Source: an uncultured Candidatus Saccharibacteria bacterium
GTDB lineage: Bacteria; Patescibacteriota; Minisyncoccia; Phycocordibacterales; UBA2100
DNA length: 64,000 nt
Assembly: GCA_964586255.1 (NCBI GenBank)
Contig: CAZPGE010000005.1
Coordinates: 12,775-76,774 of the forward strand
Direction: 5' to 3'
In this document: positions 8,206 to 58,700 of the stretch, piece after piece
How the letters are laid out: each line of letters starts with the position of its first letter
Numbering within the stretch: position 1 is the first letter of the stretch
Program-made: the position numbers and the translations under genes
The notes under the pieces: model-generated
Database searches by the model: none
The model's input: the letters and a program-made list of their open reading frames with translations, nothing else
Told to the model about the DNA's origin: nothing

Positions 8206-8220
8206 GGAGAAGCTTGGTAG

Positions 8221-8316
8221 TCCTAGTGTTTTCCGTCGCTGTCTGGCCTTGCTAGGCCAGCGCTCGGTCTCGCCGCCGTCGCGGCTGCGAAGACGGAAAA
8301 CACTAGGACTACACGC
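8221..8316 (+). repeat. Structured palindromic repeat element, copy 1 (21-bp outer stem enclosing two hairpins)
   Basis: gtagtcctagtgttttCCGTC-GCTGTCT-GGCCTTGCTAGGCC-AGCGCTCGGTCTC-GCCGCCGTCGCGGC-TGCGAA-GACGGaaaacactaggactac. It is homologous to copy 2 at 51510-51594, and the differences between copies fall so that stem pairing is kept. Confidence 0.7.
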
Positions 8317-8373
8317 GCGGGGGCGCGGGAAATTTGACAATTGGTCCGAAATACGCAAGAATTGAGCCACGGG

Positions 8374-8398
8374 GTGCCCGCACGGGCACTTTTCTTTT
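8374..8398 (+). terminator. Terminator-like hairpin plus U-tract ending 7 nt before the typA start codon (attenuator, or 3' end of an sRNA containing the structured repeat)
   Basis: GTGCCCG cac GGGCAC ttttctttt, then aaacct ATG. Confidence 0.45.
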
Positions 8399-14776: not shown

Positions 14777-14816
14777 CTGCGGCGCGGGGCCCTTGCCCCG
14801 CGCCGCATTCTTTTTA
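14777..14816 (+). terminator. Rho-independent terminator
   Basis: CTGCGGCGCGGGGCCCTTGCCCCGCGCCGCAT tcttttta. Confidence 0.65.
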
Positions 14817-15486: not shown

Positions 15487-15894
15487 ATGATTTCCTCTAT
15501 GGATGAAGCCGGTTGGTACTCGACACTGCTTAAGCCCGTATGGGCGCCGCCCGCGTGGCTCTTTTCGCCGGTCTGGACGGTGCTCTATGCCATTATCGCC
15601 GCCACCTTCGGATACGTCTTTTACAAAACGTATAAAAGGGAATTGCCACTTCGTGTCGCGCTTCCGTTTGCGTTCAACCTGGTATGCAATGCGGCATTTA
15701 CCCCAATCCAGTTCGGACTGCAGAACAATCTCCTGGCCGCCCTCGACATCACTCTCGTGCTCATCACACTCGTGTGGGCGCTCCTTGTCATCTATCCGCG
15801 ATACCGATGGGTCGCGCTCGCAAATATCCCGTACCTGCTCTGGGTGTCTTTTGCGACCGTTCTGCAGTTTACCGTCACGTATTTGAACTTCTAG
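15487..15894 (+). CDS. tspO: TspO/MBR (tryptophan-rich sensory protein) family membrane protein
   Basis: W..L..P.W.PP...F..VW..LY, Trp-rich with 5 TM helices. Confidence 0.8.
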   Translation: MISSMDEAGWYSTLLKPVWAPPAWLFSPVWTVLYAIIAATFGYVFYKTYKRELPLRVALPFAFNLVCNAAFTPIQFGLQNNLLAALDITLVLITLVWALLVIYPRYRWVALANIPYLLWVSFATVLQFTVTYLNF

Positions 15895-15951
15895 CTACCA
15901 CTCCGATTTTTCACAAAGAAATCGTACGCAATTAGACACAGGGAATCTGTT

Positions 15952-15977
15952 CTAGTGTTTTGCAAAAGACTGCAATA
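15952..15977 (+). repeat. 26-nt near-palindromic repeat, copy A (candidate operator; overlaps the -35-like TTGCAA of the arsR-like gene)
   Basis: ctagtgttttgcaaaagactgcaata, with core AGTGTTTTG|CAAAAGACT (8 of 9 positions palindromic). Exact copies lie at 16242-16267 and 44438-44463. Confidence 0.8.
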
Positions 15978-15992
15978 GATTAAAATATATGC

Positions 15993-16268
15993 ATGGCGGA
16001 GGTTTCGTACAGGAAACTTGAGCGCATCATCAAAGGGTTCGCCAATCACCGGCGTCTGCAAATTTTGGACTTGCTCAAGCGCGAGCCGGAGTTATCCGTG
16101 GAAGATGTCTCGGAGAGGCTGCGCATAGGATATGAGAATGCGTCTGACCACTTGCGCAAGCTGGCGGTCGCGGGGCTCGTCCTCAAGCGCAATGAGGGGA
16201 GTAGTGTACGGCACAAGCTGACCACTCGCGCCGAGTCTATACTAGTGTTTTGCAAAAGACTGCAATAA
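15993..16268 (+). CDS. ArsR/SmtB-family HTH transcriptional regulator (91 aa), possible controller of the downstream RM gene
   Basis: HRRLQILDLLKREPELSVEDVSERLRIGYENASDHLRKLAVAGLVLKRNEGSSVRHKLT is a winged-HTH ArsR pattern. Its last 9 codons and stop are encoded by repeat copy B. Confidence 0.7.
   Translation: MAEVSYRKLERIIKGFANHRRLQILDLLKREPELSVEDVSERLRIGYENASDHLRKLAVAGLVLKRNEGSSVRHKLTTRAESILVFCKRLQ
16242..16267 (+). repeat. 26-nt near-palindromic repeat, copy B (3' end of the arsR-like gene, upstream of the RM leader)
   Basis: Identical 26-mer ctagtgttttgcaaaagactgcaata. Confidence 0.8.
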
Positions 16269-16274
16269 GAAATG

Positions 16275-16309
16275 GGGGGGGGAAGTGAGAAAAAAAGACA
16301 GGGGGGGGT
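16275..16309 (+). promoter_or_regulatory. Homopolymeric G9 (16275-16283) and G8 (16302-16309) tracts separated by an A7 run, about 215 nt upstream of the RM gene; candidate slipped-strand (phase-variable) or G-quadruplex-forming region
   Basis: aaatGGGGGGGGGaagtgagAAAAAAAgacaGGGGGGGGtggtgagggtagagggaggggtagg. Confidence 0.4.
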
Positions 16310-16521
16310 GGTGAGGGTAGAGGGAGGGGTAGGAAAATGGGGGATGTGTGGGATGATTTTGCATATGATGATTATCCTCGGTATAGCCGTATTCCTCATC
16401 TTCGCCATCGGCCTGGCCTTCGTCATCTCCTGAGAGGGGAAGGATGGCAGCGACAAAAAGGAATAATCCCACCCTGGGCCCCGTTTCCCCAAAGTGAAGA
16501 TTTGTGGGATGATTTCGCCTA

Positions 16522-19347
16522 ATGGCCGTCAATTGGAAAGATATACAAGATAGGTCCGAAAAGTTCGTTGTCGACTATCGTGACGCTAGGGATGAAGACA
16601 GGGACGCGAAACCATTCTGGAAGGACCTCATGACGCTCTACGGCGTTGAAGCGCGCTCCGTTGGAGCGTTTGAAGAGCGCGTGCGTGTCCACGGCAGACC
16701 AGGTGTCGGAAAAATAGACTATTTCGCGCCGCGGCAATTCCTCATCGAGCACAAATCGCGAGGCGAAGATCTCGATAAAGCATACAAGCAAGCGCTCGAA
16801 TATTTCGACTCGCTCGCGAGTGAGCTCCGCCCGCGCTACATCGTTGTCTCCGACTTCGCGCGTATCCGCGTGCACGACCTGGAAAAAGAAGAATCAGACC
16901 GCATCTCCGAGTTTGCGTTGGAAGAACTACCCTCGCGCGTGCGCGAGCTCGCATTTTTTGCGGAAGAAGACGTGCGTATCTACAAGCCAGAAGAGCATAT
17001 AGATGTAAAAGCAGTCCGTGTGGTGGGCAAGCTGCACAAAGCTCTCAAGACCTCCAATTATCCACAAGAAGATCTGCCGCGACTCCTTACGCGACTCGTT
17101 TTCTGTTTCTTTGCCGACGACATCGGGATATTCGAGAAAAATGCGATGCGACACTATCTCGAAGAGAACACCCGCGAAGACGGCGCTGATGTGGGTGAGA
17201 AACTTCACAATATCTTCGAAGTGCTCGACACACCCGACGGCACGGCAGGTTCACGCGATGAGCGCCAAGCGGGGACGCTCGATACGCTTCGTGACCTCCC
17301 GTGGGTCAACGGCGGCATGTTCAAAGGCCCCGTACGGCTTCTCCAGGGAGATAGGGAGATACGCGACATGCTCATCGAATGCATGTCTTTTGATTGGTCG
17401 CAGGTGTCGCCCGCAATATTCGGCTCTATGTTCCAGAGCATAATGAATGAGAAAGAAAGGCATGACCTCGGTGCGCACTACACGAGCGAGACCAACATCA
17501 AGAAAGTCATCAACGGACTTTTCCTCGAAGAATTGCAGAAAGAGCTCGACGTGGCTGCGACCAACAAAGACCGACTCAATGCATTGTGGGATAAAATTGC
17601 GAGAATCACGCTGCTCGATCCTGCCTGCGGTTGCGGCAACTTCCTCGTGATTTCGTACCGCGAACTCCGCACCATAGAGAACGAAATCATCCGCCGTATT
17701 CACGGGAGGGAAGACAAGCGCAGCGCTGCACATGCGCAGAGTCATGCCCGCCTCGGCCTCGCCAATGCTGATCTCGATACCATGTCGAAGCTCTCGATAG
17801 AGAGAATGTATGGAATAGAAATAGACCAGTTTGCGGCGGAGGTAGCTAAGCTTTCGCTCTGGCTCGTGGATCACAAGATGAACATCGAACTCGGTCGCAT
17901 TTTCGACCAGACGTTTAGAAAGTTGCCGCTCAAAGAGCAGCCGCACATCGTTCAGGACAACGCGCTGCGAATAGACTGGGAGAGCGTAGTCCAAAAAGAC
18001 AAGCTCACCCACATCCTCGGCAACCCACCATTCCTCGGTAAACATATGCAAACGCTCGAACAGAAGTCGGAACTACTAGAGGTGTTCGGTGGGGTACAGA
18101 ACGCCTCTGACCTTGACTACGTTGCCGCCTGGTATCGCAAAGCGACCGAATACATCCAGGGCACGAAAATCAATTGCGCATTCGTTTCGACAAACTCGAT
18201 CACTCAAGGGGAACAGGTGAGCATTTTATGGCCGGATGTGTTGTCTCGAGGGGTTCGGATTCAGTTCGCGCACAGAACGTTTAAATGGACAAATGAGGCC
18301 ACTGGAAAAGCGGCCGTGTACTGTGTAATCATTGGCTTCGGACTAACAGATGCTAAGCAGCCAAAACTGTTCGAGTATGACGATATCAGGGGCGAGCCGC
18401 GGATGGTCTTGGTCACACACATTAATCCTTATCTCGTAGATGCATCAAATGTTGTCGTAGAGAAGCGCCAGAGACCTTTGTGCGAAGTGCCGATAATGCG
18501 ATACGGCAATAAACCAAGTGATTCAGGCGCTCTCATTCTCAGTACAATGGAAAAAGATCGCCTAATCGTCGCAGAGCCGGTCGCTAAAAAATGGCTTAGG
18601 CCATATGTTGGTGCCGAAGAATTTTTGAATGGAGGTACCCGTTGGTGCCTATGGCTTGTTGGGATAACGCCTGATGAGTTGCGCGCAATGCCCGAGGTGG
18701 TGCGTCGAGTACAAGTAGTGAAAGACTTTCGCGAACTGAGTACTGCGAAACCCACCCGCGAGGCTGCCAAGACACCGTGGCTCTTCTTCTATGTCTCACA
18801 GCCCACAACCGATTACATTCTCATTCCTGAAACATCGTCGGAAAATCGGGAATGGATTCCCTTTGGTTTTGTATCTAAAGACGTGATATCGAGCAACGCA
18901 ACGTACCACATCCCCGAGCCTAATCTCTATGTTTTTGGTGTATTGCAGTCAACCATGCATATGGCTTGGGTTCGCACTGTGGCCGGTCGGCTAAAATCGG
19001 ACTATCGATACACAGGTAGCCTCGTCTACAACACTTATCCGTGGCCGGAAAAAGTGGGCGATGCGCAGAAAAAAGCCGTCGAAGACGCAGCGCAGAATGT
19101 TCTTGATGTGCGTGCAAAGTACCCCACCTCGACTCTCGCCGACCTGTACGACCCTCTCACCATGCCGCAAGATCTCCTCGTCGCACACAAGGCTCTCGAT
19201 AAAGCCGTCGACGCCTGTTACGGAGTGAAAGGTTTCAAATCCGAACCCGAACGTCTCGAATTCCTCTTTGAGCTATACAAGAAGCTCACTGCATCCGAAT
19301 CAAAGGAAGCGCCCGCCAAGAAATTCCACAAGAAAACCCTCTCTTGA
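16522..19347 (+). CDS. Type IIL restriction-modification enzyme, MmeI family (single-chain endonuclease + N6-adenine methyltransferase + TRD)
   Basis: Collinear with MmeI along its length: N-terminal AKPFW...IDYF...LIEHKSRGEDLDKAY (PD-ExK residues D..E.K), motif I LLDPACGCGNFLVISYRELR, motif IV ILGNPPFLGK, then FVSTNSITQGEQVSILWP and the C-terminal SLVYNTYPW...LYDPLTMPQDLLVAHKALDKAVD block. Confidence 0.9.
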   Translation: MAVNWKDIQDRSEKFVVDYRDARDEDRDAKPFWKDLMTLYGVEARSVGAFEERVRVHGRPGVGKIDYFAPRQFLIEHKSRGEDLDKAYKQALEYFDSLASELRPRYIVVSDFARIRVHDLEKEESDRISEFALEELPSRVRELAFFAEEDVRIYKPEEHIDVKAVRVVGKLHKALKTSNYPQEDLPRLLTRLVFCFFADDIGIFEKNAMRHYLEENTREDGADVGEKLHNIFEVLDTPDGTAGSRDERQAGTLDTLRDLPWVNGGMFKGPVRLLQGDREIRDMLIECMSFDWSQVSPAIFGSMFQSIMNEKERHDLGAHYTSETNIKKVINGLFLEELQKELDVAATNKDRLNALWDKIARITLLDPACGCGNFLVISYRELRTIENEIIRRIHGREDKRSAAHAQSHARLGLANADLDTMSKLSIERMYGIEIDQFAAEVAKLSLWLVDHKMNIELGRIFDQTFRKLPLKEQPHIVQDNALRIDWESVVQKDKLTHILGNPPFLGKHMQTLEQKSELLEVFGGVQNASDLDYVAAWYRKATEYIQGTKINCAFVSTNSITQGEQVSILWPDVLSRGVRIQFAHRTFKWTNEATGKAAVYCVIIGFGLTDAKQPKLFEYDDIRGEPRMVLVTHINPYLVDASNVVVEKRQRPLCEVPIMRYGNKPSDSGALILSTMEKDRLIVAEPVAKKWLRPYVGAEEFLNGGTRWCLWLVGITPDELRAMPEVVRRVQVVKDFRELSTAKPTREAAKTPWLFFYVSQPTTDYILIPETSSENREWIPFGFVSKDVISSNATYHIPEPNLYVFGVLQSTMHMAWVRTVAGRLKSDYRYTGSLVYNTYPWPEKVGDAQKKAVEDAAQNVLDVRAKYPTSTLADLYDPLTMPQDLLVAHKALDKAVDACYGVKGFKSEPERLEFLFELYKKLTASESKEAPAKKFHKKTLS

Positions 19348-19400
19348 GACCCCTTCGTTATAAGAACGCATTCTATGCAATAATATCTGTACCTGGACTT

Positions 19401-19751
19401 ATGCTTTTAGTCAGAACTAAAATTGCGAAGAGTTCCATACATGGGAATGGACTTTTTGCGGACGAAGACATTGCAAAGGGAACAATTGTTTGGTCGTTCA
19501 ATCCGCTTATCGATAAGATCTTGACAGATGAACAGATTCAGAGTCTCCCCGCGCATATTCGCGAGCATATTGATACCTATAGTTTCATTGATGACGGAAT
19601 GCATATACTGTGCGGCGACTTCGGGATCTTTGTTAACCATTCGGATACTCCGAACCTTGGATCAGCTGGGGACGACAGTGTTGCAATTCGCGACATCAAA
19701 AGGGGCGAGGAAATCACTGATGATTATGATTCCTATGGTGAAGAGATTTAG
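19401..19751 (+). CDS. SET-domain protein (putative protein-lysine N-methyltransferase), 116 aa
   Basis: SSIHGNGLFA...IAKGTIV...FVNHSDTPN...AIRDIKRGEEITDDY fits the SET pattern G.G.FA / NHSC.PN / RDI..GEE.T.DY. It starts 54 nt after the RM stop; the track's TTG at 19344 overlaps that stop. Confidence 0.7.
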   Translation: MLLVRTKIAKSSIHGNGLFADEDIAKGTIVWSFNPLIDKILTDEQIQSLPAHIREHIDTYSFIDDGMHILCGDFGIFVNHSDTPNLGSAGDDSVAIRDIKRGEEITDDYDSYGEEI

Positions 19752-19754
19752 CTT

Positions 19755-20297
19755 ATGGTGAGAACGCTCTACAACCTCTTAATACCAATTCTTATTGCTG
19801 CTATGGGAATGTTCCTGGGCTCCTGGTTGCTACTTCAGTATTCGCAGGCGCAATTAGTGATGTATACGGACGGGTATTATCAAAATATGGATGAGGTGGC
19901 CATCGGCGAGTTCTATATAGTGAACGAGGGTAGAGAGGTTGATGAGAACGTGACCGTGGCAATAAACAAAGAAATTGAGAAGGACGAATTGACCATCAAT
20001 TATACTCGCTCGAATTGGAATGTTGAAACGAAAGACGGCCTGACCTATATCAATTTTGAGCAGATCAATCCCGCGGAAGGGATAGAAGTGCTATTTAAAC
20101 TTGCCGCGGGTGATGCAAGCTTTAAAGTCGAGGACTTTACCAGCAAGTCTGGAAACACCTATATCAGACCGTGGATTGAGCCTTGGTGGTATTTCACAAG
20201 ATTACAGCTGGCGCTCATTTTCTTTTTCCTTACGATTGCGTTCGGCTTCGGATTTGTCATAGGACTATGGAAGAATGACGTACTTAGAATTCGCTGA
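19755..20297 (+). CDS. Hypothetical membrane protein (N- and C-terminal TM helices, central soluble domain)
   Basis: Hydrophobic termini; 3-nt gap after the SET gene. Confidence 0.5.
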   Translation: MVRTLYNLLIPILIAAMGMFLGSWLLLQYSQAQLVMYTDGYYQNMDEVAIGEFYIVNEGREVDENVTVAINKEIEKDELTINYTRSNWNVETKDGLTYINFEQINPAEGIEVLFKLAAGDASFKVEDFTSKSGNTYIRPWIEPWWYFTRLQLALIFFFLTIAFGFGFVIGLWKNDVLRIR

Positions 20298-21490
20298 TGC
20301 AAACGGACTTTCTGATTCTGGGAGCCGATGGAATGCAGGGCTCGACCATCAGTCGCTTTCTCTGCAAGAGAGGATACAGGGTATCATGTGCAGATCTTGT
20401 CGATACCCGTTTGGCTACGCTAGATTTCAAATATGTCTTCCATAAATTGGATGTTGCTGACCCAGCGGCCCTGGCGCAACGAATCCGTTTTGATAACCCA
20501 AGGATCGTCATCAATTGCGTCGAGGGAGATTTAAATCTGGACGTATATCGAGTCTGTTTACGCGAAAGAGTGAATGTCATCGACCTAGGTTCCAGCATCC
20601 TTCTTACTAAGAAACAACTTGCCCTGAATCGGCAATTCAAAGAATCAGCGATAATTGGTATCACTGGTTGTGGATCGACTCCGGGTATTAATAACGTAAT
20701 GTTCCGGCATGCGTTAGAAGATTTTGATGAAATTACTGACCTTGATCTGGGCTTTGCTTGGGATTCGAATCTCAAGGAATTCGTTGCTCCTTTTTCTATG
20801 GGTAGCGTCCTATATGAATTGTCCGAACCTGCACACTTCATAGAAGGAAAGGAGCTAAAGAAGACATCTCCACTCAAATCTGGGCGGAGTAGATGGATCG
20901 ATCCCATCGGAAAACAAGAACTGTTTCTAGTCCATCATCCAGAAATCTATTCTTTTAACAGATTTTGCAAGAAAAAAGGAAAGCAACCGCAGAATGTTTA
21001 TTTTTATGCAGGTTTTCCGGAGCACAGTCTTGCTACTCTTAAATCCCTTGTCCAGTTGGGATTTTCTCATTCCGAAAAGCCTGTCACTCTCGACGAGGTT
21101 GCCATATACCCAACAGATTTCCTGACAATGATGTTAAAGAACATTGATCTGCCTGATTCTTATGTCGAGACAGAGGTATTGTGGGTAAGTATTAAGGGAC
21201 TGAGGGCGGGAAAGCCAAAAGTAGTAAAAATGGTATGCATCGTAGATTCGTTACCAGATTGGCGGATGGCAGGGTGTAATATCGATACTGCATTCCCGGC
21301 GGCATTAATTGCTGAAATGATTTACCGGGGTGAAATCAGTTCAAAGGGGAGTTTTTCTCCAGAGGAAGTTGTGCCTGAACAGCGATTCTTCAACGAGATC
21401 GCTAAATTTGGGATGCGAATATACAAAAACGGAGAGCTTATCAATGGGCTTGATCTGGTGGTCCGCAATGCGGCGGTGCGAAGCGGATAA
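20297..21490 (+). CDS. Saccharopine-dehydrogenase-like NAD(P)-binding protein (SDH / carboxynorspermidine-dehydrogenase superfamily)
   Basis: N-terminal Rossmann FLILGADGMQGSTISRFL; about 400 aa, the size and architecture of Sacchrp_dh proteins; ATGA overlap with the upstream gene. Confidence 0.6.
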   Translation: MQTDFLILGADGMQGSTISRFLCKRGYRVSCADLVDTRLATLDFKYVFHKLDVADPAALAQRIRFDNPRIVINCVEGDLNLDVYRVCLRERVNVIDLGSSILLTKKQLALNRQFKESAIIGITGCGSTPGINNVMFRHALEDFDEITDLDLGFAWDSNLKEFVAPFSMGSVLYELSEPAHFIEGKELKKTSPLKSGRSRWIDPIGKQELFLVHHPEIYSFNRFCKKKGKQPQNVYFYAGFPEHSLATLKSLVQLGFSHSEKPVTLDEVAIYPTDFLTMMLKNIDLPDSYVETEVLWVSIKGLRAGKPKVVKMVCIVDSLPDWRMAGCNIDTAFPAALIAEMIYRGEISSKGSFSPEEVVPEQRFFNEIAKFGMRIYKNGELINGLDLVVRNAAVRSG

Positions 21491-35029: not shown

Positions 35030-35483
35030 ACGTATGAGTGCGATTGCTCGCAATTATGGAAAAGCGACTCCCGTCATTTTTTCTTTGTGCCCGCCGTTAC
35101 CGACGGGATTTCAAAAAAATGTTTCGGTAGGGAGACTACCGGAGGGTTTCCGCAGATACTATGCGCCGCTTCGCATGTCCGATTGTCGTCCGCCATTCGC
35201 CATCCGGCGAAGGCGGACCGACCCCTCTCCTCGTATCCCCAAATATGGGGCCACACGCTCTAAGAAACACATTCGCTTTCCGTTTTCTAATCACCGTCCC
35301 TGGGACGGCTCTCCACACAATACATCCGGTACGGAGGTGTGCAATGCACCCTTGCGCGATTCTCATGGTGTGCTAATTTCGAGATATGGCCCAGCGACGT
35401 CATATGATGAAGCGTCCTACGACCTCCCCTGAGGCGGCTGTTGCCATGCACGAGTAAACACATCATCCCGAGCAAGACAATCA

Positions 35484-43262: not shown

Positions 43263-43991
43263 TTGACCATGAAATACATGGCCGTCGCGGTCGCGCTCGT
43301 TCTTGCAGCGTACGCGGTGTACGAGTACGCCCGCATATCTAGACTCATAGAGACGAGTCGTCAGCTCGTCAAAGAGGCGAGACCATTCTCTCGTGAAGAG
43401 GGAAAGATTCATATTCTGGTTGTCGGTGATAGCACGGCCGTCGGAGTGGGTTCGAATGCTGAAAGCACTGTCGCAGGAAGGCTCTCCAGAGCTCTGGATG
43501 CCTCCGTTGAAAACTATGCGGTGAGCGGTGCGAGGACGCGAGATATAGGTACGCAATTTGCGCTCAAGCAGCGCACAGAGTACGACATGGTGCTCATACA
43601 TATAGGTGCCAATGACATCATTCGCTTCTCCGCTCTTGAGAAGCTCCGTGATGATATATCTCTTGTGCTCAAAGATGCGAAAGGCGTTTCGGATAGAGTG
43701 GTGCTTCTCACCGCGGGAAGAGTAGGGGACGCGCCATTCTTTCCGCGTGCGCTCGGATGGCTGTGGAATTACCGCTCATCTCAGGTCCGAAGTCACTTCA
43801 AGGCATCCGCGGAAAAGTATGAGATAGCGTATGTCGACTTGTATGAAGCAAAAGACCCCTTTAGCTCGAATCCGACTCGTTTTTATGCACCGGACGGTCT
43901 CCATCTCACCGATGATGGATATGAATTTTGGTACGAGGAGGTGGCGAAGGTCATAGAGACGACGTGGCCGGGCAATCTCTATGACCAGTAA
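43263..43991 (+). CDS. SGNH/GDSL-family hydrolase, membrane-anchored
   Basis: GDSTAVG (block I) and DGLHLT (block V, DxxH). Confidence 0.75.
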   Translation: MTMKYMAVAVALVLAAYAVYEYARISRLIETSRQLVKEARPFSREEGKIHILVVGDSTAVGVGSNAESTVAGRLSRALDASVENYAVSGARTRDIGTQFALKQRTEYDMVLIHIGANDIIRFSALEKLRDDISLVLKDAKGVSDRVVLLTAGRVGDAPFFPRALGWLWNYRSSQVRSHFKASAEKYEIAYVDLYEAKDPFSSNPTRFYAPDGLHLTDDGYEFWYEEVAKVIETTWPGNLYDQ

Positions 43992-44784
43992 AAAGACACG
44001 CGCATTTCGAATCACGGTTTGGGAATACTATAAGAAACACGCGCGACATGAGTTGCCGTGGCGCAAGACACGCGACCCATACAAGATACTTGTCTCAGAA
44101 GTTATGCTGCAGCAGACGCAGGTTCCACGCGTTGTGGATAAGTACAAAGAATTTCTCATAGCATTTCCGACTATCTATGTACTTGCACAAGCGTCGCTCG
44201 CCGATGTGCTCAGGGTCTGGAGCGGGCTTGGGTATAATCGGCGGGCAAAGTATCTCCACGACGCGGCAAAGGTGATTGCCAATGAGTACAGAGGCGACAT
44301 AGAGGCCGCCACAAAGGCTAAGAAGCTTCCCGGCGTGGGACCATACACGAAATCTGCGGTACGTGTCTTTGCATTCAATGAGCCCCATGTACTGATTGAG
44401 ACCAATGTCCGCGCCGCATTTATCCATCACTTCTATTCTAGTGTTTTGCAAAAGACTGCAATAACGGATAAGGAGCTTATGCCGATTATAGAAAAAGCTG
44501 CGGAAAGCCAAGACCCGAGGGAATGGCACTGGGCACTTATGGACTATGGCTCGCATGTAAAGAAGGCGCATAGTAATCCGGCGCGACGCAGTGCTTCCCA
44601 CATCCGTCAGTCGAAATTTGAGGGGAGTCTTCGCCAAGTGCGCGGCGCGATACTGCGTGCATTGCACGAAGGCGTGTCGTTGAAGACATTGCCGTACGAA
44701 CAGGCGCGACTAAAAATCGCCCTCGCATTACTGCAAAAGGACGGTCTGTTGGCAAAAGAGGGGAAGACCTGGCGTATCGCCTAG
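43981..44784 (+). CDS. MutY/EndoIII-like HhH-GPD DNA glycosylase lacking Fe-S cysteines; contains a copy of the 26-nt repeat in frame
   Basis: LPWRKTRDPYKILVSEVMLQQTQV...VLIETNVRA... is MutY-like; there are no Cys in the usual cluster region. Repeat copy C encodes SSVLQKTAIT. Confidence 0.7.
   Translation: MTSKKTRAFRITVWEYYKKHARHELPWRKTRDPYKILVSEVMLQQTQVPRVVDKYKEFLIAFPTIYVLAQASLADVLRVWSGLGYNRRAKYLHDAAKVIANEYRGDIEAATKAKKLPGVGPYTKSAVRVFAFNEPHVLIETNVRAAFIHHFYSSVLQKTAITDKELMPIIEKAAESQDPREWHWALMDYGSHVKKAHSNPARRSASHIRQSKFEGSLRQVRGAILRALHEGVSLKTLPYEQARLKIALALLQKDGLLAKEGKTWRIA
44438..44463 (+). repeat. 26-nt near-palindromic repeat, copy C (inside the mutY-like CDS)
   Basis: Identical 26-mer ctagtgttttgcaaaagactgcaata; the flanks ttctattCTAG resemble copy A's tctgttCTAG. 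Confidence 0.8.
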
Positions 44785-52702: not shown

Positions 52703-52765
52703 GTTTTTCTAAAGCATTCCACATGCGGCGCCACGAATGTGGCGCCGCGCTGGTATGATTGGGCT

Positions 52766-55700
52766 ATGTCGAGCCTCGCAAGGCTATTCTTTCTTGTACT
52801 CATCAGTACATCTTTTTCGCTCCCGGGAAATGTGGCTGCGCTTTCGGCTGAGGCGAATGCGATGTGCAAGCCATACATCGCGGAGTGCCCGTGCAATCAG
52901 GTGCTGAATAAATGGAGGTTCATGCCCGGTCAGCCGAAGTGTAAGGCGGGTGGAGAGAAAAACGGCGCGGGATATAGCAATACACATGCGTGCAAGGTGG
53001 GTGTATGTAAAGACGTCACAAACGAACACGTGACACAGGGAGTGTGCATTGCGGCCGGGAAATGTGAGGGGAAGCTTGCAGACGACAAACCGGTACAAAA
53101 GACTGACGTGCCGGTGAAAGACGGCGATAAGCCGGTGACCGCTGAGCCGCCGCCTCCGCCATCGGTATCAGACACGGGTGATGTGACAGGTGGCATGCCG
53201 CAGAAACCGGAGGTGCCTGAGACGACTGTGCAAGACCCGACAAAGGACCTCCAGGAGACACCTGACACCGAAACCCCCATCCCGTCCGGCTCTGCGAAGA
53301 GTGTCGAAGATCAGTTGAAGGAAGCGGCAGGCGAGCCGAGTCTCTGGGAAAGGTGGTTTGGAGGTGAAACTACGCCGAAGCCGGAGACTCCTGCACAACC
53401 GGATGCTCCAGTGGGGCTCGACGGGCAGCCAGTGCAGACACTCCAGCCCGACGCAGTAGCCGACCCGCAATTGTCAGACACGGGAGTCGTTCAGACTCAG
53501 CCGGGAGAATCTACTCACACATTTGGTCAGCCTGAGGAGACCAAAACTGTCCCCGCGGAAGATGCTACGTGGTGGGGTGCGGTAAAAGATACTGCTTCTA
53601 ATGTTTGGGAGGGGGCGAAAGATATTGCGGCGAACGTGCGCGACACAGTGGCGGGCGCGTTTACATCGGATACACCATCGACTCCAAGTATCGGTGAGAT
53701 AGAGATGCCACCGCCGCCGGCGGAAGTGCCGACGTTAGCAGACACGACAACCGGTGGAACACCAGAGCCGGTACCCGCAGGCGCCAGCGCGGAGCCATCC
53801 GCGACGCAACTCAATACACCGGGAAATGTGGGACCAGTGCCGTATGCAGAAGAGCTTTCGAAACTTGGCTTCGGCAATGACTTGCTGGGAAGCAGGCTCA
53901 AAGAATTGAATGGACTTATTCAAAATGGCAATGATCGGATTGAAGCGGGAAATGCGGACCTCACAACGCGAAAAGAGTCGCTCGATGCGCAGTATGCGCA
54001 GCTGAAGAGCGCGTGTGCTGCGAATACGTGCACACAGTCACAAATAGACACATACAAAGAACGAGCAGCTGCGTACGACCGAGATGCAGCAACGCATAAA
54101 AAACTCGCAGAACAAACGAGGGAATACGTCGACTCCGCGAAAGCGATAGCCTCTGCATTGAACAAGCCAACAGACCTCTCTGCGTATACGGGACGCGTGC
54201 CTGATACACCGGAAAATAAGTTTGTGAGCGATGTATCGCGCGCGGCGCTCGGAGAAATATCGAGGCAAGAGGTGAATGCATTCTGGAACGATACGCCCGC
54301 AAGTGACCTGGTGACAGAGAGATCTCGAATCGCGGGGAATGCTTTTGAGGCGGCGACACACAATGTCACTCCATCACAAGTTGCCGACGCGTTTGGAGAT
54401 TCTGCGCGGCTCTCGGATATTCGGAATCAGACTGCAATTACAGCGGCACAGGAGCAGCTTCGACAAATAGAAACGATTCGTTCGGATACGCCGATTAGCC
54501 AGCTCACACCCGAGCAAGCGGACCTCCTCTATAGAGAGCCGCTCATACGCGAGGAGCTCACTCGACTCGAAAGTGAGTCGCAGTCTCGTGCAGAGAGGAC
54601 TGAGAATATCCAACACGCTCTCCGCAACAGTCAGTATGGAGAGCAGCTGGCGCGCGCGCTGACTACCGAACCAAAAACGCCAGTTGAGCGACTTATACAA
54701 GAGCAGCTCTATTTGAAAGCGGCGGAATTATCGCGCAACAACTTCGCCGCCGAATTGCTTAGGAATACGGAGCAAGCACCGACGGGGCTTACGCCGGAAG
54801 ATTATTACATCCCGGTGGATACCGGGAAAAATGTGTACACGGATGGGGCAGCACAAGCGGATAGGCATATCGGAGAATTGACGGGTGCTCTCAAGCCGTC
54901 ACCGGAAACACAGAGTCTCTTAGACCGCGTAAATGGCAACGAATCATTCGGCCGATATGCTCCGCGAGCGCTCGCTGATGCGACAAATTTCATCGCGGAC
55001 TTGCCCGCAAAAGGATTGGAAGCATTGGGTGTGAACAGCACGGTAGCACATGTGGCCAACGGCATTCTCAACCCGGTCAAATGGGGAGCGGCTGCCTATG
55101 ATGCGTACCTCACGCTTTCGGGCAACCCAAGTACAGAGAGAATGCTCAGCGAGTATGGCATGTCGTCTGGAGAGAGGACATTCGCGCGAGTGATGGATTA
55201 CGCGTCGATAGCTGGTGCGGTCGCCCCATCGCGTGCCCTCATGGGTCTTGGGTCGACCAATGAAATCGGTGTTGTGGCCGAATCGTCGCGCGCATTTACA
55301 TTGAGTGATTCGGTCGCGACGAATGCAGCACGTGTAGAATTGCCGGCGCGAGATTTCGGAGCGGGCGCGTATAAGCATGTCGGCGATACGCCGCTTGGTC
55401 CTGTCTATGCGGCCGACACGCTCCCGTCTGTAGCATCGAGGGTTTCAAACACGGAACGGCAAGCCATCGAAGCGCTTAGCGGCAGGTCGCTCACATCTGC
55501 CGACCGCACGATACTCTCGCAAGTGGGACTTGAAGCGCGGCCATACGGAACCGTACAGGCGGAAATAACGAGAGGTGCGGGCGTGGCGCAGATTACCGAA
55601 AGTGTAAACATCCAGCGAACGGCGCTGGTTAACGGCAATGGGGAAGTAGTGGCTGTCCAAAGCCGCGTCCTCGGCTCTGGCGCGGCAAATTTCGATGCAA

Positions 55701-58700
55701 TGGAAAGATTTGCAATCGTTGCAACTCCGGAAAACACAGGAGTATTCGCATCGCTGCGCCAGCAATTCGACAATTGGTTTGGCCGTTCGGAGCCGACTCC
55801 GAGCGCGCGGCCAACGACGGCAGATGCGACACCGTCTTCCGCTGGTGATACGACACCTTCGGCACGCCCCGCCGATACTCCGGCGCTCCTAGAGTCTCCT
55901 CGAGGCACGACTCCATCTCGTACCGCAGACGTGCCTGATGGTGCGGTGCCGACAACTCCTCGAACAGCTGCAACAGACGGGCAAATCAGCGAAATCGGTC
56001 GTCCACAAAATCTCCCAGATGCACCCGCTGCTCCTCGTGATGTCACGCCAGCGAATACGCCTGATGTCCCTGTGGTCCAGACACCCGACGCGCCTCTTGT
56101 ACCCGACGGAGCGCCAGGAGTGATTCCTGCAGAACCTCTTGCCTCTACTTTGCCGACTACTGGATGGAACCCGAGTGAGTCGCTTGCGAGATTCGCGAAA
56201 GCGAGTGTCGTAGCATTTGGTCTTCTTCACAGCCCAGTGTCTCCGCTTGTCGATACGGCCGTAGCCAGAGGTGTATCAGGCGTGCCGGGCACCGTCTCAG
56301 TAAAAGCCTGTCTTTCAGACTGGACGTGTCTTACGCCGGAGACGGGACTCGGTAAGCGATACGAATTGAACAACGTAGGGTCCAATGGCGGGAACAGGAC
56401 CGCATCTGGCTACCAGCCAGGGCCAAAGGACATGCTCATCGCTTCGCAGACATATCCACTCGGCACATATGGAGAGCTATGCAACGGCGGCAGATGCACG
56501 AAGGTATTTGTAGGCGACACAGGCAATTTCAATCAGGCAAAATATCGCTACGCCAAATTTGACCTGCTCCCACAAGTGTCTTCGGTCGTAGGTCCGACGG
56601 CTGCACAGGGGAGGACGACGATGACGTTTACGCCGTATGGAATAGCAAAGGTAGAAGATGCCGCGGCAATTACGCGAGCAATGAACGCGGGGACTGCATA
56701 CCCCGATGCGGTCGCGCAGATACAGAACAAAGTAATTGCATACGCGCCGGGGAAGAGCGTCGAGCCGACAGCTGTAGCACAGGCTGCGCCGCCCGTCCCG
56801 CAAACACCGACGAGAGTCGCAGATATATCGCCCGCAGTACCCGCAAGCCAGCCAGCGGCAGCGGGGGAGCCGCGGTCTGCTGGGCCTCGTACAGCACTTC
56901 CGGCAGAGCTCGACACTTCGACTTGGACCACGAGGCGCATAGTCGATTCTTTTGTGCCGACGAAGACACCGGTACAGGTCGTCGCTGCAGAGCTCGCGAA
57001 TCCTACGGCAGAAATAAATGCGCTTTCATCGGCGCTCGTCGCAGACGGAATCATCCCTCGAGGCTCGACGGTCACTGCGGCCGCGGATGGGACGACGAAT
57101 GTACGAATTCCGAGCGGGGAGGTGCAGACACTCAAGGTAGTGGTTCCCGAAGCACCTGCCAATCTCAATATCACAGCACCGCGTGTCAGTGTCGGCGAGC
57201 TCAGAAAAGTGTACGCGCAGACAAAGAGTCCCGACATAGGCCGGGTGCTCAGGGCAATTGATGAGCGCGGATTCAATACCGTCCCTGACCGCGCATTTTT
57301 GAACAACGACACTCTCAAACAGCTCGTCGGAGTCTTGCGCGACTACGACAGAATGTTCCCCGGTCAGGTGCCTATCATCAATGAATTGAGCGACACTATC
57401 GGGCGCCCCTTCTCTAGCACTCACACATTTGGTCAAGCTATCGACTTCCGTGCGCGCGAGTGGAGCCCGCAAGTGAAAGCGTTGCAGAATATCTTGCTCT
57501 CACATGGGATGGCGACCCCATATTCGCTCTTCCACGGTACCGGCCCGCACTTGCATGCGGACGGGGGAGAAGTGAAAGCCGCGGATGCCTCGAATCTCAA
57601 CATCTCATACAAGACCGCACCGCAATACGCGCTGCACGATGCAGAGGGTGCGCAGGTGGGGAAACAATTCGCGCTCGGTGGACCGAAAGCTGCGCCAGTA
57701 CCGCCGACAAAGGTGGCAACCGCCCCGCTCCCGAAGCCGTCTCCAGCCCAAGTCGCAATCGGTACATTTGAACCACCGGCGCCGACAAGACCCGGCCCCG
57801 CATTTACTGCGGACAATGTGCCGGCCGAATGGAAGCAGTCGCCAATCACTGTGGCGGAAGCGAAGCCTCCCGTTACAGCCCCTGAGCCTGCGGCAGTGAC
57901 CGTGCCTCCTGCGCCAAAGGCGCCTATCGCTAAACCCGCGCCGATTCAGGCTGCGGAGATTGTTCCTGTCCCGAAGCCACGACCAACTGTATCCTCGACG
58001 AAAGTACCTACAGTCACAAAAGCTGCGACTCGCAATGTTCAGCCGAAAGCAAAGAATCAGGTTGCAGTCACGAAGCAGTTGCCCCCTGTAGATACGCGGT
58101 CAGCCGATGAAATCGCAGCGCAGATGCTCGCACTCAACAACAAAGTAGCTGCACAACTGAAGGTTCCGCCCGCCGAAGCGATGCCGAAGCTTCTAGAGAG
58201 AAATACTAAAATTGGCCAGTCTCTGAAGTCCGTGCAGGCTATAAAGAGCGAGCTCGATGAGCTGGCTAATAAAGTAGTGAGTACGTCTTTGAAGTCTCAG
58301 ACACTCTATGACCAGGGCAACACCGCCGCTTCTAAGGTTGAAGGAAACAAAGTCCAACCTCTTTTCCAGCAACTCGTGGCGCATACAAAGCAACTTTCCA
58401 CGGAAGCTCTTACTGAGGCTGATATTAAAGCGGTGCAAGCAGCGGCCGGTCGTGCTAACTCGGCAGCAAATGTACTCGAGGACACCATTCATCCAGACAA
58501 GGTTGTGGGTATCTATATGAACTCGAAAAATCCCGACGGCACGGCAAAGTTTGCGGACCAAGCTGCATTCGTGAAGTACGTAAAGGGGCTGGCGGGGAAT
58601 TTCCGTGGCAGTGTGGCGCAAGTTTCGTCACCTTTGTCTACCAAGATCAAGTCGTATCAAGTGGAGATTGCTTCCAATGACGCTCTCCTCAATCAATCAA

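What the first reader, a model, noticed from the sequence alone, without database searches (positions are those of the whole stretch)
15952..19347. MmeI-family type IIL RM enzyme preceded by an ArsR-type mini-regulator bracketed by identical 26-nt near-palindromic repeats
The 941-aa ORF is collinear with MmeI, with its catalytic D...E.K, DPACGCGNFLV and NPPF motifs and the MmeI C-terminal block. It therefore appears to be a complete single-chain restriction-modification enzyme, probably acquired horizontally, since the island is AT-richer than its surroundings. The 91-aa ArsR/SmtB HTH gene immediately upstream is unusual for RM systems, which normally use Xre-type C proteins. It is flanked by two exact copies of ctagtgttttgcaaaagactgcaata, a 9+9 imperfect palindrome. 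The upstream copy overlaps a -35/-10-like TTGCAA...TAAAAT only 5 nt from the ATG, suggesting autoregulation and a leaderless transcript. The downstream copy overlaps the regulator's stop and a second TTGCAA, and could act as an operator controlling RM expression. A third exact copy lies 28 kb away inside the mutY-like gene.
Basis: partly seen in the sequence, partly recalled or inferred. Interest (0 to 1): 0.7.

Follow-up and report, generated by a model that had tools for sequence, protein, structure and literature searches.

The report
Conserved regulator palindrome beside a swappable restriction gene
The repeat is the probable binding site of a small regulator conserved across a large group of uncultured bacteria; the restriction enzyme next to it is intact but is interchangeable cargo, not the regulator's dedicated partner.

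Summary
The window holds three exact 26-mers, a 91-aa ArsR/SmtB-fold gene and an intact 941-aa MmeI-family enzyme. From published specificity residues I predict that the enzyme recognises ..CRAG, probably TCCRAG.

The 26-mer is the core of a 32-bp near-palindrome ('pal', half-site CTATnCTAGTnTTTTG). The unit pal-regulator-pal is a conserved chromosomal feature of Patescibacteria. About 100 other loci carry one copy over the -35 of a leaderless promoter and a second copy over the stop codon. In 76 loci whose retrieval was independent of synonymous codon choice, the codons under the second copy are frozen (Leu CTA 75/76; TTT, TGC and AAA 76/76). Equally invariant residues elsewhere use all synonymous codons.

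MmeI accompanies none of the other 96 regulator loci. The closest relative has an Mrr-like nuclease in the same slot. The slot is nevertheless a restriction-modification hotspot: 10 of 102 downstream ORFs are DNA methylases, against none detected upstream.

Best reading: an autoregulated, non-metal ArsR-type repressor with its operator, and MmeI as independent cargo. Control specific to the restriction enzyme is not supported.

Unexplained: in-frame pal copies in mutY, tsaC-like and purN-like genes, a patchy distribution across the mutY tree, and strict co-orientation of the copies.

The parts
15947..15978 (+). pal1: the 32-bp near-palindrome CTGTTCTAGTGTTTTGCAAAAGACTGCAATAG. It covers -46 to -15 relative to the regulator's ATG and is the candidate operator.
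   Evidence: A pal was found at this position in 72 of 77 loci whose retrieval was independent of synonymous codon choice. The commonest layout is pal end, 2 nt, TAnnAT, 6 nt, ATG.
15959..15986 (+). Promoter-like TTTGCA, 16 nt, TAAAAT. It ends 6 nt before the ATG, which implies a leaderless mRNA.
   Evidence: The same -10 hexamer followed by 6 nt and ATG recurs in L014, L033, L051 and L058-L060, and in 26 of 74 loci with exactly this spacing. The TANNNT-6/7 nt-ATG layout is common in the window and Shine-Dalgarno motifs are rare.
15993..16268 (+). 91-aa ArsR/SmtB-fold winged-helix protein closest to HlyU and SqrR. It has no canonical metal site and a single Cys, C87.
   Evidence: Pfam HTH_5. 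PDB sequence matches to HlyU at 1.9e-7. AlphaFold model with pLDDT 82 and topology a1-a4, two-strand wing, a5. Foldseek matches to HlyU, SqrR, CadC and AspA at TM 0.74-0.81. The family has 1163 cluster representatives.
16237..16268 (+). pal2: CTATACTAGTGTTTTGCAAAAGACTGCAATAA. It encodes the last nine residues, ILVFCKRLQ, plus the stop codon.
   Evidence: Found in 69 of 78 loci. Codons under it are frozen (Leu CTA 75/76; Phe TTT, Cys TGC and Lys AAA 76/76), while invariant residues elsewhere use all synonymous codons.
16269..16342 (+). Purine-rich tract with G9 (16274-16282), A7 (16290-16296) and G8 (16301-16308) runs.
   Evidence: Similar G/A-rich tails follow pal2 and solo pals in many loci. 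Function unknown.
16343..16365 (+). First copy of GATGTGTGGGATGATTTTGCATA, lying before a small hydrophobic ORF. Reading its TGTGGGATGAT core as an extended -10 is my inference.
   Evidence: repeat D10.
16272..16433 (+). Small ORF (53 aa as listed) that ends in a transmembrane-like segment, MMIILGIAVFLIFAIGLAFVIS. It is shared with L033.
   Evidence: No Pfam or PADLOC match. Whether it is a real gene is uncertain.
16499..16521 (+). Second copy of the TGTGGGATGAT motif, ending just before the MmeI ATG. It is a candidate MmeI promoter. Homology with L033 resumes here, where L033 has its Mrr-like gene.
16522..19347 (+). MmeI-family type IIL restriction-modification enzyme, 941 aa, intact. Predicted recognition sequence ..CRAG (TCCRAG if positions 1-2 match MmeI).
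   Evidence: Specificity rules come from PMC2731914: E770/N792 give C at position 3, A793/R829 give R at position 4, K825/D827 give G at position 6.
44433..44464 (+). Solo pal copy in frame inside the MutY-like gene (43981-44784). It encodes YSSVLQKTAI in a surface loop.
15487..15894 (+). TspO/MBR gene immediately upstream of pal1. It is a recurrent neighbour of the unit.
   Evidence: TspO lies within 5 kb of the regulator in 12 of 84 loci and near the regulator gene or a pal copy in 6 of the 51 earlier loci. A solo pal lies 55 nt before TspO in L090 and L093.

Best explanation
There are two separate things side by side.

(1) A small ArsR/SmtB-fold repressor, closest to HlyU and SqrR, that is conserved across Paceibacteria-type Patescibacteria. 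As a dimer it probably binds the 32-bp palindrome pal.
- One copy (pal1) covers the -35 region of the gene's own leaderless promoter, which would give negative autoregulation.
- A second copy (pal2) is written into the last nine codons and the stop codon. I infer that it acts as a second operator or roadblock. That would couple or insulate whatever lies downstream.
- Further copies lie before or inside a few housekeeping and stress genes: TspO, HD hydrolase, NUDIX, MazG, a purN-like gene and mutY. This suggests a small regulon, possibly redox-related.

(2) An intact MmeI-family type IIL enzyme. It sits behind a conserved motif that may be its own promoter, in a variable slot downstream of pal2. 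Related genomes hold other RM or defence genes in that slot, or unrelated genes. MmeI is therefore interchangeable cargo.

What is shown: the anatomy, its conservation, the DNA-level constraint on pal2, and the absence of MmeI linkage.
What is inferred: binding of the protein to pal, repression, the effector signal and the role of pal2.
For: Distribution of the repeat:
- The 22-nt core occurs in 51 contig stretches from about 40 Patescibacteria MAGs and in no viral contig.

The unit is universal:
- It is seen in all 4 loci fetched by protein identity. In 80 loci fetched with degenerate peptide patterns, pal1 is found in 72/77 and pal2 in 69/78.

DNA-level selection on pal2:
- Leu is CTA in 75/76 loci; TTT, TGC and AAA are each 76/76.
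- The invariant peptide KGFANHRR uses all synonymous codons, for example Gly GGG 31, GGA 26, GGT 12, GGC 7.

Promoter geometry:
- The commonest layout is pal1, 2 nt, TAnnAT, 6 nt, ATG.
- Leaderless-type starts are common in the window.

The protein:
- ArsR/SmtB fold.
- The two alignment columns that covary most with pal position 11 are the wing-tip residues S70 and S71 (mutual information 0.62 and 0.42). Position 11 of pal1 and the synonymous Val codon position in pal2 agree in 51 of 67 distinct loci.

The site is read as double-stranded DNA:
- The window's pal1 and pal2 fold poorly as RNA (-5.9 and -3.9 kcal/mol; z -1.0 and -0.4).

MmeI is independent:
- It is absent from all 96 other regulator loci.
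- L033 has an Mrr-like gene behind the same TGTGGGATGAT..ATGGCC junction.
- L142 has neither TspO nor MmeI.
- The nearest MmeI homologue is 69% identical and lies elsewhere in its genome.

Gene neighbourhood:
- Upstream are redox and stress genes: MsrB and TrxR in the window; AhpC, FMN reductase, TspO and HD in other loci.
- Downstream, DNA methylases and RM genes are enriched: 10/102 ORFs against none detected in 101 upstream, Fisher p = 0.0015.
Against: - No binding data exist.
- A symmetric dimeric repressor explains neither why all 14 asymmetric extra copies are co-oriented with the regulator gene (p = 1e-4), nor why the window's three copies share the same asymmetric right arm.
- Operators do not normally arise as 30-nt in-frame replacements inside conserved genes. 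Yet pal occupies one loop of mutY in 35 of 120 orthologues, scattered across the tree. It also occupies fixed sites in tsaC-like and purN-like genes.
- pal2 has no -10 element after it, so its role is a guess.
- The covariation of wing residues with pal position 11 is not corrected for phylogeny.
- The RM enrichment downstream leaves room for some functional tie between the unit and RM genes.
Confidence: 0.6

Rival explanations
1. The ArsR-like protein is the dedicated controller of the MmeI gene, as a C protein would be, and pal2 is the operator that times RM expression.
For: - The regulator lies immediately upstream of MmeI and on the same strand. pal2 lies between them.
- RM genes of several types recur just downstream of the unit in other genomes.
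Against: - None of the other 96 regulator loci has MmeI.
- The regulator is 77-100% conserved while the downstream gene changes: Mrr-like, type I, type ISP, C5 methylase, NUDIX, TspO, YdeI-like, MscL.
- The nearest MmeI homologue is not adjacent to its genome's regulator.
- MmeI follows a conserved candidate promoter motif 230 nt past pal2, with a G-rich tract and a small ORF in between.
- The protein is not an Xre-type C protein.
Confidence: 0.08
2. pal is a miniature mobile or self-propagating palindromic element, comparable to REP elements or Rickettsia RPEs. It would spread by single-strand transposition or by homing-like gene conversion. Its master copy is embedded in the 3' end of the gene for its binding protein, in the way REP elements flank their RAYT transposase gene.
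For: - Copies with identical sequence occur in unrelated contexts, including in-frame 10-aa inserts in mutY, tsaC-like, purN-like and ksgA-like genes.
- The filled state is scattered across the mutY tree among empty orthologues.
- All 14 asymmetric extra copies share the regulator gene's orientation. Single-strand DNA transposons show such a bias (my knowledge).
- Many pal1 copies are perfect palindromes with covarying arms. Some solo copies extend to 44-46 nt hairpins.
- The same mutY loop carries unrelated palindromes in other lineages.
Against: - Only 1-4 exact copies per genome.
- No target-site duplication. The mutY copy replaces about 23 nt with 32 nt rather than making a clean insertion.
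- No transposase or recombinase lies nearby. A 91-aa winged-helix protein has no catalytic motif.
- The unit sits in conserved synteny, not at random sites.
- The window's own copies fold weakly as hairpins.
Confidence: 0.17
3. pal is a site-specific recombination site, of the lox, dif or attC kind, that bounds gene cassettes. The slot next to pal2 would capture RM and defence genes through it.
For: - All three synteny breakpoints between the window and its closest relative L033 coincide with pal copies. L033 has an extra ORF (166 aa) exactly between pal2 and a further pal.
- Runs of three or four pals spaced 80-700 nt apart occur in several loci.
- RM genes are enriched downstream.
- The site can be read as two 13-bp arms around an 8-bp spacer, and the arms are of hybrid types.
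Against: - No recombinase gene in the window's neighbourhood. Pfam was scanned only for the two ORFs flanking the unit on each side in other loci, and only the 25 commonest families are listed; none of them is a recombinase.
- The RM inserts are not bracketed by a distal pal within the sequence held: the window, L059, L065, L071, L075 and L080.
- The central spacer is itself palindromic, so it gives no direction to recombination.
- The window/L033 gene swap begins after a conserved TGTGGGATGAT motif and ATGGCC, not at a pal.
Confidence: 0.08
4. pal is a polar chromosomal landmark, such as a Ter-like fork barrier or a centromere-like site. The winged-helix protein would then be the counterpart of RTP, Tus or AspA. 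(From my knowledge: rtp and tus each lie next to one of their sites and are autoregulated through it. AspA is an ArsR-like protein of 92 aa.)
For: - Low copy number, a 32-bp asymmetric site and strict co-orientation, 14 of 14.
- The window lies on a single replichore by GC skew.
- AspA is among the sequence and fold matches.
- Some sites lie inside genes. From my knowledge, some parS sites do as well.
Against: - pal1 is often a perfect palindrome and therefore not polar.
- Exact copies lie on several different contigs of one MAG, so they are not obviously clustered.
- HlyU, SqrR and CadC match better than AspA, and RTP is not among the matches.
- Co-orientation is confounded with gene strand bias.
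Confidence: 0.06

Closest known systems
MmeI (type IIL/IIG restriction-modification enzyme; PDB 5HR4)
   Same: It aligns with MmeI end to end (1-934 against 1-914, E = 3.6e-297). All five MmeI Pfam domains, the D..ExK nuclease motif, DPACGCGNF and NPPF are present.
   Different: The specificity pair at MmeI positions 806/808 is K/D instead of E/R. That pair was shown to switch position 6 of the site from C to G (PMC2731914). The predicted site is therefore ..CRAG, not TCCRAC. The host is a Patescibacterium, and the nearest database relative is 69% identical.
Non-metal ArsR/SmtB regulators: HlyU, SqrR and BigR (thiol or persulfide sensors)
   Same: These are the best sequence and fold matches (HlyU 1.9e-7; TM 0.74-0.81). 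The topology is the same, a1-a4, wing, a5. A palindromic site overlaps the gene's own promoter. A Cys lies in helix a5.
   Different: - Only one Cys (C87). From my knowledge, SqrR and HlyU have a partner Cys in a2; the helix a2 stretch of the window protein (residues 19-30) contains no Cys.
- The Cys codon is the centre of pal2, so its conservation may reflect the DNA site.
- A second operator copy is written into the last nine codons and the stop codon. I know of no ArsR-family precedent for that.
- The effector is unknown.
C-protein-controlled RM systems (C.PvuII, C.AhdI and others)
   Same: A small helix-turn-helix gene with a palindromic site at its own promoter lies just upstream of a restriction gene on the same strand.
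   Different: From my knowledge, C proteins are Xre-type, are inherited together with their RM genes and are co-transcribed with the nuclease gene. Here the regulator has an ArsR fold, is conserved independently of the RM gene, and is separated from MmeI by 253 bp that contain another candidate promoter.
CIRCE/HrcA, and parS inside spo0J (highly conserved palindromic protein-binding sites; my knowledge)
   Same: A long palindromic site conserved at the nucleotide level across deep lineages, present in few copies per genome. As with parS, one copy lies inside the gene for the binding protein.
   Different: pal2 coincides with the stop codon and the C-terminal helix. Other copies occur as in-frame replacements in unrelated genes, scattered across the gene tree.
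REP elements with their RAYT transposase, and Rickettsia palindromic elements (my knowledge)
   Same: Short palindromes flank the associated gene, and copies are tolerated in frame inside protein-coding genes.
   Different: - The copy number is tiny.
- No transposase was found.
- There is no clean insertion or target duplication.
- The flanking copies are direct rather than inverted repeats.
Defence-island or RM integration hotspots flanked by core genes (my knowledge)
   Same: Related genomes hold different RM or defence genes in the same slot next to a conserved marker gene.
   Different: The marker here is a tiny regulator unit bounded by palindromes. In the window/L033 pair, the swap begins right after a shared TGTGGGATGAT motif and ATGGCC.

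Membership tests
MmeI family (type IIL RM) | Five-domain single-chain architecture: N-terminal nuclease, helical spacer, methyltransferase, target recognition domain, C-terminal domain | tested here: met
   Pfam MmeI_N, MmeI_hel, MmeI_Mtase, MmeI_TRD and MmeI_C, each far above its cut-off. Full-length alignment to 5HR4.
MmeI family (type IIL RM) | Catalytic D-x(n)-E-x-K nuclease motif, plus methyltransferase motifs I (DPACGCGNF) and IV (NPPF) | tested here: met
   D66..E76-H-K78, DPACGCGNF at 366, NPPF at 501. The residues align with those of MmeI.
MmeI family (type IIL RM) | Cleavage about 20/18 nt from the site and m6A methylation of one strand only | not testable with these tools
   Needs an enzyme assay or a SMRT/nanopore methylome. 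The prediction is m6A at the A of ..CRAG.
ArsR/SmtB transcription regulators | Winged helix-turn-helix fold a1-a2-a3-a4-b1-b2-a5 and a match to the family profile | tested here: met
   HTH_5 at 30.7 bits against a cut-off of 22. HlyU at 1.9e-7. Model pLDDT 82 with that topology. Foldseek to HlyU, SqrR, CadC and SmtB at TM 0.74-0.81.
ArsR/SmtB transcription regulators | Canonical metal sites: a3N Cys-x-Cys, or the a5 Asp/His/Glu site | tested here: not met
   Helix a3 reads ELSVEDV with no Cys. Helix a5 reads RAESILVFCKRLQ with no His or Asp ligands. This is a feature of the metal-sensing subset only, so the protein belongs with the non-metal members.
ArsR/SmtB transcription regulators | Dimer binds an inverted repeat overlapping its own promoter (autoregulation) | tested here: inconclusive
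   The position is conserved: pal1 in 72/77 loci, commonest gap to the ATG 14 nt. Wing residues covary with pal position 11.
C-protein-controlled RM system | The controller is inherited together with its RM genes | tested here: not met
   MmeI is absent from all 96 other regulator loci. The nearest MmeI homologue lies elsewhere in its genome.
C-protein-controlled RM system | Xre-type helix-turn-helix C protein with a C-box, co-transcribed with the nuclease gene | tested here: not met
   The fold is ArsR/SmtB. A 253-bp gap with a G-rich tract, a small ORF and a separate candidate promoter lies before MmeI.
Miniature mobile palindromic elements (REP, RPE, MITE) | Many dispersed copies per genome | tested here: not met
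   3 copies in 64 kb. 1-4 exact copies per MAG across 185,579 representative genomes. Variant copies would add a few more.
Miniature mobile palindromic elements (REP, RPE, MITE) | Clean insertion relative to empty sites, with target duplication or an associated transposase | tested here: not met
   In mutY, 11 codons replace 8 with no duplication. No transposase or recombinase nearby.
Miniature mobile palindromic elements (REP, RPE, MITE) | Presence or absence at one site does not follow the host gene tree | tested here: met
   Of 120 mutY orthologues, 35 are filled, 61 empty and 24 carry other inserts. They are interleaved on a neighbour-joining tree built without the loop. The tree is approximate.

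The most novel reading that the evidence does not exclude
pal is a self-propagating site resembling an operator. Its master copy is encoded in the 3' end of the gene for the protein that binds it. It copies itself in one orientation into conserved housekeeping genes, by homing-like gene conversion or a single-strand mechanism. Its copies mark a chromosomal slot that repeatedly captures RM and defence genes. That would make the regulator and its site a new kind of selfish or domesticated module in Patescibacteria.
Probability: 0.18. Interest if true: 0.85.

Novelty: new variant of a known kind. Interest (0 to 1): 0.6.

Why it matters
- Regulation in Patescibacteria is almost unknown. This gives a concrete and widely conserved pairing of a transcription factor with a candidate site, in more than 1000 protein clusters, that can be tested in vitro. 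It comes with a leaderless promoter layout and a candidate stress regulon.
- It is a clear case of a DNA site constraining the synonymous codons of the gene that encodes its presumed binding protein.
- It identifies a hotspot for restriction-modification and defence genes next to a tiny marker gene. That is useful for mining defence systems in these genomes.
- It gives a predicted recognition motif for a new MmeI-family enzyme, which can be checked against methylome data.
- The in-frame, scattered and co-oriented copies inside housekeeping genes are unexplained. They may point to a new way in which short sequences spread.

Tried and rejected
- **Chance or assembly artefact:** rejected. No 26-mer match is expected by chance. 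The same arrangement occurs in independent MAGs from many studies.
- **Known RNA family:** no Rfam match in 15800-16600 at E <= 1. The only match in the whole window is a glmS ribozyme. There are no tRNA genes, so this is not a tRNA-linked attachment site.
- **Hairpin or terminator function for the window's copies:** weak folding, z -1.0 and -0.4. The terminator scan found nothing at the pal copies.
- **Phage origin:** no match in viral contigs.
- **General excess of in-gene palindromes in this genome:** not seen. Only 15 strong hairpins were found, several of them terminator-like stems followed by T runs.
- **Recombinase or transposase next to the unit:** none among the 28 window ORFs scanned.
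- **RM inserts bracketed by a second pal:** not seen within the sequence held.
- **The other palindromes in the mutY loop as repeated elements:** no further copies in the sequence held.
- **Literature:** nothing on this motif or on ArsR-linked palindromes in Patescibacteria.
- **Breakpoint test:** the all-against-all comparison of alignment ends with pal positions (289 observed, 18 expected) is dominated by the regulator unit itself. I do not use it as independent evidence.
- **Right edge of the MmeI insertion:** could not be located, because the contigs of close relatives end too early.

Full report
**1. Checking the observation**

The 26-mer CTAGTGTTTTGCAAAAGACTGCAATA occurs exactly three times, at 15952, 16242 and 44438, all on the + strand. 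None is expected by chance.

- a 91-aa ORF at 15993-16268;
- a 941-aa ORF at 16522-19347;
- the third copy in frame inside a 267-aa MutY-like gene at 43981-44784.

Pfam places the 91-aa protein in the ArsR family (HTH_5, 30.7 bits against a cut-off of 22). It finds all five MmeI domains in the large ORF.

The large protein aligns end to end with MmeI (5HR4; 1-934 against 1-914, E = 3.6e-297). It keeps D66..E76-x-K78, DPACGCGNF and NPPF.

GC content is only slightly low for MmeI, 0.519 against 0.55 for the window. The SET-domain gene, orf180 and the saccharopine-dehydrogenase-like gene that follow are at 0.43-0.44.

**2. The repeat is much more than a local repeat**

A scan of one genome per species for the 22-nt core found 51 contig stretches in about 40 MAGs. 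All but one are labelled as Patescibacteria: Kaiserbacteria, Paceibacterota, 'Saccharibacteria', Nomura-, Doudna- and Vogelbacteria. Each genome has 1-4 exact copies. Viral contigs gave nothing.

Lining up the copies and allowing mismatches shows a 32-bp near-palindrome, which I call pal. Its half-site consensus is CTATnCTAGTnTTTTG.

The contexts recur:
- the 3' end of the ArsR-like gene;
- about 14-20 nt before its ATG;
- in frame inside mutY, tsaC/sua5-like, purN-like and ksgA-like genes;
- intergenic, just before other genes.

**3. The pal-regulator-pal unit is universal**

The ArsR-like protein defines a family of 1163 cluster representatives. Members are about 90-93 aa long. The top 120 are 76-100% identical to the window protein, and all end in ..LVFCK[RK]L[QEVAK].

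To avoid circularity I fetched loci through the protein rather than through the repeat.
- Four loci came by exact protein identity.
- Eighty came from metagenomes through degenerate peptide patterns.
- All four of the first set carry both copies.
- In the 80, a strict parse finds pal1 in 72 of 77 and pal2 in 69 of 78. Most of the apparent misses are proteins with variant C-termini.

**4. DNA-level constraint on pal2**

Across 76 loci the invariant peptide KGFANHRR uses every synonymous codon:
- Gly GGG 31, GGA 26, GGT 12, GGC 7;
- Phe TTC 40, TTT 33;
- Arg, six codons.

The codons under pal2 are frozen: Leu CTA 75/76, Phe TTT 76/76, Cys TGC 76/76, Lys AAA 76/76. Variation is confined to pal positions 5, 11, 22 and 26-28.

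So the last nine codons and the stop are constrained as a DNA site as well as a peptide. The window's right arm (..GACTGCAATA, Leu-Gln-stop) is one common variant. The symmetric variants give Leu-Glu, Leu-Val or Leu-Ala followed by stop.

**5. pal1 sits on a leaderless promoter**

The window has TTTGCA, 16 nt, TAAAAT at 15959-15986. It ends 6 nt before the ATG.

Across loci the commonest layout is pal1 end, 2 nt, TAnnAT, 6 nt, ATG. The gap from pal1 to the ATG is 14 nt in 26 of 74 loci. The hexamers include TAGAAT 9, TAAAAT 8 and TACAAT 5.

pal1 therefore spans -46 to -15, where a repressor would block RNA polymerase. The same layout of a -10 hexamer, 6-7 nt and ATG is common for other genes in the window, and Shine-Dalgarno motifs are rare.

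**6. The protein**

- The AlphaFold model (pLDDT 82) has the ArsR/SmtB topology.
- The best fold and sequence matches are HlyU, SqrR, CadC, CzrA, SmtB and the centromere-binding protein AspA.
- There is no a3 Cys-x-Cys and no a5 His/Asp metal site. The only Cys is C87 in helix a5, and its codon is the centre of pal2.
- pal position 11 in pal1 and the synonymous Val codon position in pal2 agree in 51 of 67 distinct loci.
- The two protein columns that covary most with that position are the wing-tip residues S70 and S71 (mutual information 0.62 and 0.42). This suggests direct readout, but it is not corrected for phylogeny.
- The window's pal1 and pal2 fold poorly as RNA. That fits recognition as double-stranded DNA rather than as a hairpin.

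**7. MmeI is not the regulator's partner**

- tblastn finds MmeI next to the regulator in none of the 96 other regulator loci: none of the 51 core-repeat loci, 19 of which carry the gene, and none of the 84 loci fetched through the protein.
- The closest relative is L033 from Parcubacteria bacterium Athens0416_74, with a regulator 98.9% identical. Its order is pal, HD, pal, regulator, pal, an extra 166-aa ORF, pal, G-rich tract, small hydrophobic ORF, then an Mrr-like type IV nuclease.
- Homology between the window and L033 continues through the G-rich tract and the small ORF. It resumes at a shared motif just before each defence gene's ATG: TTTGTGGGATGAT, 8 nt, ATGGCC. Beyond that the genes differ.
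- This motif, first seen as repeat D10, occurs twice in the window, before the small ORF and before MmeI. I read it as a possible extended -10 element; that is an inference.
- A second close relative, L142 (regulator 98% identical), also lacks MmeI and TspO.
- The nearest MmeI homologue in 5.8 billion proteins is 69% identical. By locus tags it lies about 200 genes from that genome's regulator.

**8. The slot is an RM and defence hotspot**

I took the first two ORFs downstream of pal2 in about 55 loci, 102 ORFs in all. DNA methylase and RM families head the Pfam list: N6_Mtase 4, N6_N4_Mtase 3, C5 methylase 2, D12 class 1, Eco57I 3, HsdM_N 2, Type_ISP_C 1. PADLOC reports 200 matching defence models.

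The 101 upstream ORFs serve as a control. No methylase family appears in their list. DUF1905, TspO, AhpC/Redoxin, FMN reductases and HD domains appear instead. PADLOC finds 40 models there, all singletons.

Ten of 102 against none of 101 gives Fisher p = 0.0015. The upstream count could hide a weak singleton.

Examples downstream of the unit: type ISP (L065), type IIG-like (L071), type I (L059, L080), C5 methylase (L075), and a Schlafen-helicase, M78 peptidase and DUF4411 island (L060). These inserts are not bracketed by a distal pal within the sequence held.

**9. Other genes associated with pal**

TspO lies within 5 kb of the regulator in 12 of 84 loci, and near the regulator gene or a pal copy in 6 of the 51 earlier ones. 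It is sometimes directly behind a pal.

A pal lies 7-35 nt before the starts of an HD hydrolase (L033), YdeI-like genes (L001, L051), MazG (L023), a purN-like gene (L010), TspO (L030) and ArgS (L003). It lies 57 and 67 nt before the called starts of MscL (L036) and NUDIX genes (L048, L058).

In the window the unit is preceded by MsrB, thioredoxin reductase, an HD hydrolase and TspO. A regulon concerned with redox or nucleotide-pool stress is plausible but is inferred.

**10. What the operator model does not explain**

- **mutY.** Among 120 mutY orthologues the loop after ..FIHHF takes three forms. It is empty in 61 (F[PA]DKExV, as in non-Patescibacteria MutY). It is filled with the pal-encoded Y[SA]SVLQ[KN]T[AS]I in 35. 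It carries other inserts in 24.
- **Replacement, not insertion.** At the DNA level, 11 codons replace 8 and there is no target duplication.
- **Scattered distribution.** On a neighbour-joining tree built without the loop, the filled state is scattered among empties.
- **Other palindromes.** Two of the other inserts are unrelated palindromes: CTTGTGCAAGTCAGACCTGCACAAG and GCTTCCGGCAAGGCCGGAAGC.
- **Other genes.** pal also sits at fixed in-frame sites in tsaC-like and purN-like genes.
- **Orientation.** All 14 asymmetric extra copies found on contigs that carry the regulator share the regulator gene's orientation (p = 1.2e-4).
- **Breakpoints.** All three synteny breakpoints between the window and L033 fall at pal copies.

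These points keep three other readings alive: a mobile or homing element, a recombination site, and a polar chromosomal site. Each lacks a key feature. I found no transposase or recombinase, copy number is low, and many pal1 copies are perfectly symmetric.

**11. MmeI specificity**

Published mutagenesis assigns MmeI residues to positions of the recognition site: E751/N773 to position 3, A774/R810 to position 4, and E806/R808 to position 6. The double change E806K/R808D switches position 6 from C to G (PMC2731914).

The window enzyme has E770/N792, A793/R829 and K825/D827 at the aligned positions. I therefore predict ..CRAG, which is TCCRAG if positions 1-2 match MmeI. TCCRAG occurs 53 times in the window against about 62 expected, so the site is not avoided.

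**12. Verdict**

The RM enzyme is intact and was probably acquired horizontally. The regulator has a leaderless, probably autoregulated promoter.

The central claim, an RM-specific controller, is not supported. The finding that matters is the conserved pal-regulator-pal unit. Its operator is written into its own stop codon, in-frame copies lie in housekeeping genes, and an RM hotspot lies beside it.

Noticed in passing
window 35065-35270 (-): A glmS ribozyme/riboswitch (Rfam RF00234, 65.5 bits against a gathering score of 37). It is the only Rfam match in the window.
   Followed up: no
window 8217-8312 and 8373-8398: A perfect 21-bp inverted repeat (GTAGTCCTAGTGTTTTCCGTC / GACGGAAAACACTAGGACTAC) encloses a 54-nt segment that contains a further hairpin. 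A terminator-like GC hairpin with a T run follows, just upstream of the typA/bipA gene (8405). It may be a structured leader or a small RNA. No Rfam match.
   Followed up: partly
L056:5459-5483 and L057:5490-5510 (mutY orthologues): In other lineages, the mutY loop that holds pal in the window carries unrelated palindromes: CTTGTGCAAGTCAGACCTGCACAAG and GCTTCCGGCAAGGCCGGAAGC. Longer inserts occur in still other orthologues. This one loop appears to be a hotspot for palindromic inserts.
   Followed up: partly
window 16274-16282, 16290-16296, 16301-16308: G9, A7 and G8 homopolymer runs lie in the purine-rich tract after pal2, inside the listed small ORF 16272-16433. Similar G/A-rich tails follow pal copies in many loci. 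The function is unknown, and such runs are prone to slippage or sequencing error.
   Followed up: partly
L033:1558-2270: The closest relative carries an extra 166-aa ORF on the reverse strand, with no Pfam or PADLOC match. It lies exactly between pal2 and a further pal copy and is absent from the window.
   Followed up: partly
window 10210, 11971, 20297, 31200, 39217, 40678, 51677 (gene starts): Many genes have a TANNNT hexamer ending 6-7 nt before the ATG and lack a Shine-Dalgarno motif. Leaderless mRNAs appear to be common in this organism.
   Followed up: partly
window 52739-62095 (+): A very long ORF of 3118 aa. I did not examine it.
   Followed up: no
window 19344-21490: Three genes follow directly after MmeI: a SET-domain protein, an unknown 180-aa membrane-like ORF and a saccharopine-dehydrogenase-like protein. 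At GC 0.43-0.44 they are far more AT-rich than MmeI and may belong to the same island or to a separate one. The SET gene start overlaps the MmeI stop.
   Followed up: partly
window 14777-14808: A 14-bp GC-rich hairpin (CTGCGGCGCGGGGCCCTTGCCCCGCGCCGCAT) lies between the thioredoxin reductase stop and the likely true start of the HD hydrolase gene. By comparison with L033 that start is about 14842, not 14751.
   Followed up: no
L068:3702, L072:5342, L082:661 and 1546: Some solo pal copies extend to 44-46-nt perfect hairpins (CTTTTCC-pal-GGAAAG; -21.7 kcal/mol as RNA). They often lie 80-110 nt downstream of pal2.
   Followed up: partly
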